This document shows, piece by piece, positions 54,016 to 56,209 of a DNA stretch of 64,000 bases. The stretch lies in assembly GCA_030390025.1 (NCBI GenBank), contig CM059432.1:14572001-14636000 (forward strand), written 5' to 3'. Below the pieces are notes generated by a model. It was not told the DNA's origin and searched no databases. It saw nothing but the letters and a program-made list of their open reading frames with translations. The first letter of the stretch is position 1. Each line of letters starts with the position of its first letter. The stretch is from Squalus acanthias. Its lineage: Eukaryota. Both the position numbers and the translations under genes were made by a program.

Positions 54016-54871
54016 AATTTCTAATTTGGCCTCTTAATGCTGATAACCCAGTGGCGAGCCATATCCGGCCCGCTATGGCCTGGCTTCGAGGCCGAACGTC
54101 TGCCGCACCTGACCCCTCGCCCAAGCCCCGCCCCACGTAATGTCAGGAGGCAGGTCATTGTCTCCAAGCTACCAGGTGAGCCATAACCAAAAACCAAAAC
54201 ACAAAAACAAAGGCGGGCAAATCAAATCTGCCGTTTGCTGCATCAATGTGTCGTTATCACACCTGAAATCTCAGTTTCTGCTCCATCACTGCAACGTGAA
54301 AGGTGAGTTACTCACAGTTTGTGGGTTCAGTTTCCATAAATCTGTGCAAACTTTGCAGGTAAATGCAGGAGAACGTAAATACTTTAAATATAGGAAATAA
54401 CGCCATTGGCAGAATGCCTCGCAATTGAAACAATCCAGTCGATTGGAAGATTGTTTGCTTCGAACAATTTTTAAAACTTGCAGCAACTTTTTAGTCTCAA
54501 CTCGTCTCCAAAGGAATTTTAGCAATTAATTCAAAATTAGTCCTGGGCTTAATTTCATGAGTTATAAATTGCTATTTTTGTTTATTGGTGCAATTGGGTG
54601 AAAGGTGTTGTCTGAATTCCGCGGGGGTTCCGCCAGTCTCCCAGCGTAACTCTGGCGCAGACCCAGTTATGTCGGGTCCCTGCCGTTTCTGGGAGTTTCC
54701 TCAGTAAAGTACGGGGAAGCTTCGAGCCCAGTGGTGGGGAAAATACGGCCCGCGGGCCGTAAAAGACCGGCCAGTTCATTCTATCCGGCTCGCTGGACGG
54801 GACAGAAATAGAACACGAGCCGGAGCTCGAGCTGCACATTAGTCTGAGTCGAGTCACGGCTGCTCATCGCG

Positions 54872-55002
54872 ATGACTCTTTCACCGAAGAGAGAGGCCAG
54901 CGCTGCGTCTTTCCTCTCCCGGTACCCAGAGAACGACGGCAGAGGGGGATTCTCATCGCCATCTTAGACACGGGAGTGGATCCCGAAGCACAGGGACTCC
55001 AG
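54872..55002 (+). pseudogene. TPP2: Orphan, frameshifted copy of tripeptidyl-peptidase II exon 1
   Basis: MTLSPKREASAASFLSRYPENDGRG, 2 extra G in the run at 54944-54948, then ILIAILDTGVDPEAQGLQ and donor CAG|GTAATG at 55003. Compare TPP2 LLPKKETGAASFLCRYPEYDGRGVLIAVLDTGVDPGAPGMQ. No further TPP2 exon recognised in the window. Confidence 0.85.
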
Positions 55003-56209
55003 GTAATGGCCCGCGATTGCAGTTCAGGCCTTGCGAAGCCTCAGGCTCCAGTACGCAGCACACTGAAAAGAGAACACCTCCCACGTCGGAGGCCCCGCTG
55101 ACTGGAGCCGCTCTGCCAATCAGCCACGTAGACTTTCAGTACAACATATCATCGATCGATCATTTCATTCATTTCGTAACGGAAGATGTTACACTACATT
55201 TTAAGATAGTAGCTGACTACTATCTGAATTTATGTTTATAAATTATTGGGAGGGTAGAAGTGGGAGTGACGGTCAACACTATGAGTTGGCCTGCTTCAAA
55301 TTTACCCATTTAACACATTGCTGTCACCAATGTGCGCGGTCCCTTTAAATTTGCTGCGCGGTATCTCTTCCAGCGGCAGGAGCTGGTGAGCGGCCTGCGC
55401 GGGACCTCGCGATCAGTGTGTGACCGTGCGGCCGCGCACCTTAGGGGGAACGTTGGTGTGGGGCCCTCAACAGCTCACCAAAACTTGTTAAGCGGCCCTC
55501 CAGCCCAAATAATTGCCCACCCCTGTGATAACTTGCAGCTGTAAATGGGAGGTGAATGCAGGGAGGGCTGGACGGCGTCTTGAGCTATTATGCTGCGTGT
55601 AACTGGGAAGTCAATGTTTAGTGCTGAGCCAAACGGTGCCAATCCGAGAATATTAAGAAGAAGCTGATGATCAATAGTTTGTCACTATAAGGTAATAACC
55701 TCATTGATGGATTTGGGTGACTTCATGAACTGTGAGAGTGAACCGTGAGTGGTTTATAGCTGTCATTTGAATCCTGAGGGTTTAGTTTGATTTAATTTGT
55801 GTCTGTTTTTTGCTGACAGTGAAAGTCATGGTGAATGCCAGCTGGCAGTCAGCTTCAAACCGATTAGGTATGTGCCTTGAAAATAAGCTTGTTCAATAGT
55901 ACCATATGACAGAATAACAGGTCCCAATGAAATTCCTTAGTCTGCTATCTTAATAGAGAGACTAACTCATTTTAAATCAACTTTTTCACACCTCTGTTAA
56001 AATAGTAGACCAAAGGATATCATGTGGCTGCATTAAGTATACACTAATACTCAAAGAGCTTAATTTCAGGCCAATGTTCACTAAATGATTCTGGTGTAAT
56101 CATTACAAGTTTCTTGAATGCCAGTCAAGAGTTGATATAACATGTTCAGTATCTATATTATAATGGATTAAAGTTCACTATTATAGTTTACTGGGACCTT
56201 GATAGGAGA

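What the first reader, a model, noticed from the sequence alone, without database searches (positions are those of the whole stretch)
54600..55130. Orphan TPP2 exon 1 with splice donor and CpG-rich flanks, antisense within THEMIS intron 2
Seen: a ~43-codon match to the TPP2 N-terminus, including the subtilase catalytic-Asp motif (IAILDTGVDP). It ends at a GT donor where I recall TPP2 intron 1 begins, has a 2-nt frameshift in a G run and sits in CpG-rich sequence. The ORF track misses it. Keeping the donor argues for a DNA-level duplication or transposon capture of the TPP2 5' end rather than a retrocopy, and TPP2 is not, to my knowledge, a RAB12 neighbour. Inference: a transplanted housekeeping promoter/first exon that could drive an antisense transcript through THEMIS3, or the first exon of a second TPP2 gene with an assembly error.
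Basis: partly seen in the sequence, partly recalled or inferred. Interest (0 to 1): 0.7.

Follow-up and report, generated by a model that had tools for sequence, protein, structure and literature searches.

The report
Transposon fusing TPP2 and OASL pieces
This is one of well over a hundred scattered copies of a cut-and-paste transposon in a shark-like genome that carries a broken first exon of the TPP2 gene; this longer version also carries DNA matching the region upstream of antiviral OASL genes, likely picked up when two neighbouring elements jumped as one, and the copy here is likely inert.

Summary
The TPP2 exon 1 and its GT donor are real, but they are not an orphan. They lie inside a 1,477-bp non-autonomous hAT element (54049-55525) with terminal inverted repeats and an 8-bp target-site duplication. 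The TPP2 cargo is 83% identical to the real exon 1 region on contig C7. A deletion-junction 25-mer occurs 142 times in the genome, control 0. 53 of 54 copies share a 17-bp frameshifting deletion and decay evenly over codon positions. This copy also has ACG for ATG.

The scan found this TPP2 family before on other DNA of this genome. Not met in my look-ups: the long form here is a composite. It joins the 5' end of a sister element, about 0.5 kb matching the upstream region of a four-copy OASL cluster, and the TPP2 element behind a fossil insertion site. Sister copies keep ISRE-like motifs; this one lost them. The same ends also carry a tetraspanin first exon.

Only 66 bp upstream of the TPP2 start codon were captured, so no TPP2 promoter transplant is shown. 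No autonomous partner was found.

The parts
54041..54048 (+). Left target-site duplication, TGATAACC
54049..54062 (+). Outer 5' terminal inverted repeat (imperfect, about 14 bp)
54063..54180 (+). 5' part of a TPP2-free sister element of the same family ('G' subfamily, e.g. L324), with a GC-rich promoter-like piece of unknown source
   Evidence: 85% to L324 positions 55-171; 105 candidates, 40 scored
54204..54728 (+). Cargo matching the upstream region of the OASL cluster on C13 (83.31-83.47 Mb); about 200 bp with the ISRE-like motifs are deleted in this copy
   Evidence: 80-85% to L228; donors; OAS and ubiquitin domains
54691..54700 (+). NF-kB-like 10-mer, also present in the OASL upstream region (consensus recalled; function untested)
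54721..54728 (+). Fossil target site TTCGAGCC in front of the inner TIR; the same 8-mer sits at the breakpoint in all four C13 loci
54729..54790 (+). Inner 5' TIR and subterminal; the start of the short TPP2 element, which has its own TSDs elsewhere
54791..54855 (+). TPP2 sequence upstream of the start codon (66 bp in the donor)
54856..55002 (+). TPP2 coding exon 1: ATG changed to ACG, family-wide 17-bp deletion near 54880, 2-nt surplus near 54942
55003..55332 (+). GT donor and start of TPP2 intron 1
55333..55455 (+). Remnant of a nested high-copy MITE, flanked in sister copies by its own 8-bp repeat and absent from L076
55456..55525 (+). 3' subterminal and 3' TIR
55526..55533 (+). Right target-site duplication, TGATAACT (7/8 here; organisms B, C and D read C at 55533, giving 8/8)

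Best explanation
The stretch is a decayed copy of a multicopy non-autonomous hAT transposon whose inside holds TPP2 exon 1 with part of intron 1 and, in this long form, DNA matching the upstream region of OASL genes; it was likely spread by a transposase acting in trans and is likely inert here. Shown: ends, TSD, cargo identities, copy number, the shared deletion, even decay. Inferred history: (1) a small element took in about 766 bp of the TPP2 5' end at DNA level, likely by template switching (4-bp microhomology at the 5' junction); (2) the founder lost 17 bp between two TCTTTT repeats, so all copies are out of the TPP2 frame; (3) it amplified and split into subfamilies; (4) a TPP2-type copy likely inserted at TTCGAGCC upstream of an OASL gene, next to a same-orientation sister element, and the pair moved as one with about 745 bp of OASL upstream DNA between them; (5) a deletion derivative landed in the THEMIS-like intron, probably before this species split from organisms B, C and D.
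For: Copies: 40 scored of 668 candidates at 80-87% on many contigs; 142 junction matches and 522 matches to the 3' end, controls 0. TSDs: 41 of 64 copies with both ends match at 7/8 or better; cross-pairs 17 of 2,756 among the 53 rows kept; T at position 4 in 35 of 39 and A at 5 in 34 of 39, the Buster-type nnnTAnnn consensus (PMC3517528, passages). Donor: 479/577 identities over leader, exon and intron. 53 of 54 copies share the deletion; non-CpG substitutions are 4.6, 4.9 and 5.0% at codon positions 1-3, p=0.77; CpG sites 16%. Composite: long forms carry their TSD at the outer TIR and a fixed 8-mer before the inner TIR. The OASL match ends at that 8-mer in 4 of 4 C13 loci, which show no TPP2 part or element ends. 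C13 is 7.8-9.0% from the element consensus against a median of 4.6% for 45 copies. The 5' module is a sister subfamily's end. This is the neighbouring-insertion model of PMC8903248 section 9.
Against: No autonomous element with matching ends among 54 hAT-domain loci. Crude pN/pS against the consensus is 0.6, not 1; I attribute this to uncorrected transition and CpG bias but did not simulate it. This copy keeps 26 of 33 CpGs in the TPP2 part, sixth highest of 48 (median 0.64; p about 0.05 one-sided, uncorrected). Its two indels net to -15, so the frame from the ACG to the donor is open. No element remains at the C13 site, so step 4 needs a lost allele or paralogue. At well-conserved sites, 3 of 45 copies diverge as much as C13's 23 of 372 fixed differences.
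Confidence: 0.85

Rival explanations
1. This copy has been co-opted as a promoter and first exon and drives an antisense transcript through the THEMIS-like gene.
For: GT donor kept; CpG o/e 0.90; CpG retention in the upper range of copies; NF-kB-like motif kept; insertion probably shared with three other species.
Against: Only 66 bp of TPP2 upstream DNA; ISRE-like block deleted; non-CpG divergence from the consensus is above the family median (5.7% vs 4.8%; 6.8% vs 4.6%), so no sign of constraint; CpG retention in the outer module equals the median.
Confidence: 0.07
2. The direction of the OASL link is reversed: a long-form copy inserted upstream of an ancestral OASL gene, lost its ends and inner element, and supplied that gene's ISRE-bearing upstream region.
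For: L110 shows that the inner element can be lost exactly at the fossil site. No element is present at C13 today.
Against: It needs two losses (the 5' 153 bp and the inner element) and leaves the source of the block unexplained. C13 is about twice as far from the consensus as typical copies; 1 of 45 copies is further. Both flanking modules exist as independent subfamilies.
Confidence: 0.15
3. First exon of a second TPP2 gene with an assembly error, or a retrocopy or segmental duplication.
For: The genome does hold two TPP2 genes, on C6 and C7.
Against: Both have their own exon 1 elsewhere. The TPPII domain is found only on C6 and C7. TIRs, TSD, retained intron, a start-codon change and a 17-bp deletion shared with 52 other copies cannot be a homopolymer error.
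Confidence: 0.01

Closest known systems
Multicopy animal Pack-TIRs, e.g. Pack-hAT-N8_XT with the CAPSL 5' UTR in Xenopus tropicalis (Tan et al. 2021, PMC8277862; read parts 1-2 of 10, passages, one supplement row)
   Same: Host fragment inside hAT ends, distinct TSDs, donor distant and not flanked by the element, short microhomology.
   Different: There 4 (1.4%) were multicopy, the hAT example on three chromosomes; here at least 142 copies, several subfamilies and cargo from at least three loci. Elephant shark, the one 'shark' row found in the supplements, had 0 Pack-TIRs. Their scan targeted young elements with strict filters.
Plant Pack-TYPE elements, including Pack-hAT and the AB/BB fusions (Gisby and Catoni 2022, PMC8903248; read section 9 and passages)
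   Same: Two neighbouring same-orientation elements move as one with the DNA between them; cargo from several loci.
   Different: Described in plants; here a vertebrate case with the inner TIR and fossil target site still readable.
Bat Helitron HelibatN3 and relatives (Thomas et al. 2014, PMC4224331; passages)
   Same: Promoter or leader, first exon and part of intron 1 (NUBPL) amplified to about a thousand copies; bias to gene 5' ends; sequential capture.
   Different: Rolling-circle elements; here a cut-and-paste hAT with TIRs and 8-bp TSDs.

Membership tests
hAT superfamily, non-autonomous | Short terminal inverted repeats | tested here: met
   About 14-bp imperfect TIRs at 54049 and 55525, conserved across copies
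hAT superfamily, non-autonomous | 8-bp target-site duplication, different in each copy | tested here: met
   41 of 64 copies at 7/8 or better; cross-pairs 17 of 2,756
hAT, Buster family | Target consensus nnnTAnnn | tested here: met
   T4 35 of 39, A5 34 of 39; consensus from PMC3517528
hAT, Buster family | Cognate transposase of the Buster clade with the same ends | tested here: inconclusive
   None among 30+18 PF05699 loci and 6 PF14291 loci; 639 PF05699 candidates existed, so most were not examined
Pack-TIR / Pack-TYPE | Internal host sequence with an identifiable parental copy | tested here: met
   TPP2 on C7, OASL cluster on C13
Pack-TIR / Pack-TYPE | Parental copy not flanked by the element (not a segmental duplication) | tested here: met
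   Only the cargo matches in 50 kb around TPP2 exon 1 and in L228, L233, L239, L240
Pack-TIR / Pack-TYPE | DNA-level capture (intron kept) | tested here: met
   Up to about 530 bp of intron 1 in the basal form
Functional TPP2 gene | Start codon, intact frame, downstream exons | tested here: not met
   ACG, 17-bp deletion, no further exons in the window; TPPII domain only on C6 and C7
Exapted promoter or first exon | Transcription start and splicing from the donor | tested here: inconclusive
   Only contigs of guessed-RNA runs were available

The most novel reading that the evidence does not exclude
The composite subfamily is a ready-made interferon-inducible first-exon cassette: OASL upstream DNA with two ISRE-like motifs and an NF-kB-like motif placed in front of TPP2's leader, start codon and splice donor, spread to a few dozen sites. 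18 of 20 copies examined keep at least one ISRE core, and the family consensus has a new 48-codon frame open from the ATG to the donor. Some copies would have wired shark genes into the interferon response, or the OASL promoter itself descends from the element.
Probability: 0.12. Interest if true: 0.8.

Novelty: new variant of a known kind. Interest (0 to 1): 0.55.

Why it matters
Cut-and-paste elements in vertebrates were reported to capture host DNA mostly as single copies. This family shows plant-style behaviour: high copy number, several gene 5' ends as cargo (TPP2, OASL upstream region, a tetraspanin), and a readable intermediate of the two-elements-move-as-one mechanism. It gives a dated series of natural copies in which to test whether captured first exons and ISRE motifs are ever used. 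It also explains well over a hundred false TPP2 hits in such genomes. This particular copy is probably inert.

Tried and rejected
C6 TPP2 paralogue as donor: its exon 1 has the same intron position but gave no DNA match to the element.

Expression: no listed run is on record as RNA. In guessed-RNA run X17 one 208-nt contig (depth 3.85, 5 differences) runs unspliced across 54944-55151; no joint at 55002 was among the 15 joints shown, 122 more were not shown; X20 had depth 0 in the bins over the exon. Contigs give no strand and may be DNA or host pre-mRNA, so this is no evidence either way.

G run in reads: one search lists no indel there, but paralogous contigs dominate the depth, so this is not a test.

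Chimeric proteins starting with the new-frame peptide: none scored; one weak hit, E 1e-3 over 23 aa in a 1,808-aa protein, not followed. Weak negative. One search (C6 exon 1) found nothing.

Source of the 410-bp segment X of the basal form and the 205-bp insert Y: not found; top hits were copies. Source of the G module not found.

The 100% 'G' hit to C13 is an artefact of an overwritten file and was disregarded. Two of three OASL exon translations were out of frame; I rely.

Literature: searches listed no paper describing this family or Pack-hATs in sharks. The library lacks most subscription papers and Repbase/Dfam were not available, so the repeat may be catalogued there. PMC10400998 and the other listed papers were seen as listings only.

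Full report
Observation. The window reads as cartilaginous-fish DNA: the genome's canonical TPP2 exon is 92% identical to Scyliorhinus and 89% to Stegostoma TPP2. The real exon 1 is at G000:C7:79,129,339-79,129,509, minus strand, with exon 2 8.4 kb downstream. Window 54791-55332 aligns to it at 479/577, covering 66 bp upstream of the ATG, the whole exon and about 330 bp of intron 1. The copy has ACG for ATG, a 17-bp deletion between two TCTTTT repeats and a 2-nt surplus before the G run.

It is a transposon copy. A DNA search gave 40 scored of 668 candidates at 80-87% on many contigs. A protein search scored 150 of 483 candidates, nearly all starting near residue 13, where the deletion falls. 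A 25-mer across the deletion matches 142 places and a 39-mer of the 3' end 522 places, both controls 0. Of 29 loci found by the 3' end, 16 carry TPP2 within 1.5 kb, so several hundred TPP2-bearing copies is a rough estimate; some counts include tandem or segmental duplicates on small contigs. The element spans 54049-55525 with TIRs and a 7/8 TSD. Of 64 copies with both ends, 22 have 8/8 and 19 have 7/8 TSDs. After dropping 11 rows whose outermost visible TIR followed a fossil-like 8-mer, 39 of 53 remain at 7/8 or better, against 17 of 2,756 cross-pairs; the sites have central TA, the Buster signature (PMC3517528, passages).

One founder, even decay. Of 78 loci, 9 were duplicates of other loci, 5 lacked the exon or were too short and 10 were tandem or segmental duplicates, leaving 54. 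Of these 53 share the 17-bp deletion (the last has a disrupted 5' part), 40 keep ATG and 43 keep GT. Non-CpG substitution is equal across codon positions (p=0.77) and CpG sites are hit at 16%; crude pN/pS is 0.6, uncorrected. Median non-CpG distance to the consensus is 4.8% in 48 copies; this copy is at 5.7%. I give no age in years.

Subfamilies. The basal form is about 1,420 bp with its own TSDs: 61-bp 5' end, 766 bp of TPP2, an unplaced segment X and the 3' end. One branch has a 205-bp insert in the leader (219 candidates). The long form, to which this copy belongs (153 candidates, 40 scored), has a second 5' TIR inside, preceded by a near-constant 8-mer, and its TSD at the outer TIR.

The long form is a composite. 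Its first part matches the 5' end of a TPP2-free sister subfamily (85%; complete copies with TSDs). The middle matches four loci at C13:83.31-83.47 Mb at 77-79% over about 745 bp. These loci lack element ends and TPP2, and the match stops at TTCGAGCC, the 8-mer in front of the inner TIR, in all four. Downstream of one of them lie exons with nucleotidyltransferase and OAS1_C domains and, further on, a double ubiquitin domain, which is the OASL architecture (recalled). The block ends about 1.7 kb before the first coding exon that I read from the sequence; that it is the promoter is inferred from CpG o/e 0.9 and motifs. It holds one full and one 13/14 match to the ISRE consensus quoted in PMC6851283 (passage), plus an NF-kB-like 10-mer (consensus recalled). 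The ISRE core occurs at 0.005-0.03 per kb in three control stretches; 18 of 20 copies that carry the segment keep at least one. This copy has lost that segment. The layout matches the neighbouring-insertion model for plant Pack elements (PMC8903248 section 9). Capture from OASL is favoured over the reverse because C13 is about twice as far from the consensus as the copies are, but it is not proven; I put it at about 80-85%.

Other cargo on the same ends. A 1.4-kb subfamily (6 copies among 7 loci) carries the leader, exon 1 and intron start of a gene at C3:139,067,189-139,067,269. Its 27-aa exon weakly resembles the tetraspanins CD9 and CD81 (E 0.011 and 0.036; no Pfam hit), and a tetraspanin exon lies 26 kb downstream on the same strand. 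The label TSPAN5/17 is recalled. An 830-900-bp subfamily with TSDs carries further unplaced cargo.

Other species. Runs of organisms B, C, D and G hold the family at depths far above the single-copy flank (summed depth is no copy number). In B, C and D a contig runs from the unique right flank 28-29 letters into the element, just under the tool's 31-letter bridging rule, and reads C at 55533, which makes the TSD perfect. That suggests a shared insertion; G shows no such contig among those listed.

Function here. Not shown. The TPP2 promoter proper was probably not captured, the ISRE block is gone and there is no sign of constraint. CpG retention is mildly high in the TPP2 part (26 of 33) and average in the outer part (13 of 22). 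The RNA data could not decide.

Relation to what is known. It works like plant Pack-TYPE elements and bat Helitrons and meets the tested criteria for an animal Pack-TIR of the hAT class. It differs from published animal cases in copy number and serial cargo (PMC8277862; PMC4224331). The scan noted the TPP2 family several times on other DNA of this genome, and similar Pack-hATs in other sharks and rays; these are unchecked notes, not support. Word look-ups for the OASL and tetraspanin cargo found no note holding all the words, which shows only short summaries and is weak evidence.

Verdict: a new variant of a known kind; interest 0.55.

Noticed in passing
G000:C6:130,982,879-131,079,164 (+), L057-L066: A second, divergent TPP2-like gene: 22 exon matches at 42-85% to Stegostoma TPP2, intact exon 1. 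Not checked for completeness or expression.
   Followed up: partly
G000:C7:77.34 Mb and 79.12 Mb: Exons 1-2 of canonical TPP2 lie 1.78 Mb from exon 3, with N gaps near both breaks; probably a scaffolding error.
   Followed up: partly
G000:C13:83.30-83.50 Mb: Cluster of at least four OASL-type units (OAS exons plus double-ubiquitin exon) in mixed orientation.
   Followed up: partly
L110 (C24:1.05 Mb): Long-form copy that ends exactly at the fossil site, as if the inner TPP2 element had been removed.
   Followed up: partly
C3663 (L010-L019), C26, C1989, C3245, C3370: Copies multiplied further inside tandem arrays or segmental duplications.
   Followed up: no
e.g. G000:C5:73,156,778 (L193): A young hAT family with many near-identical hits and open frames of about 650 aa; its ends do not match this element.
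   Followed up: partly
window 145-570 (-); 26589-27392 (+): Ras-family exon at the window start and a Harbinger-type DDE_Tnp_4 fragment inside the THEMIS-like intron.
   Followed up: no
L322 (C7:135.22 Mb): Minimal 212-bp element with both ends and a 7/8 TSD.
   Followed up: no
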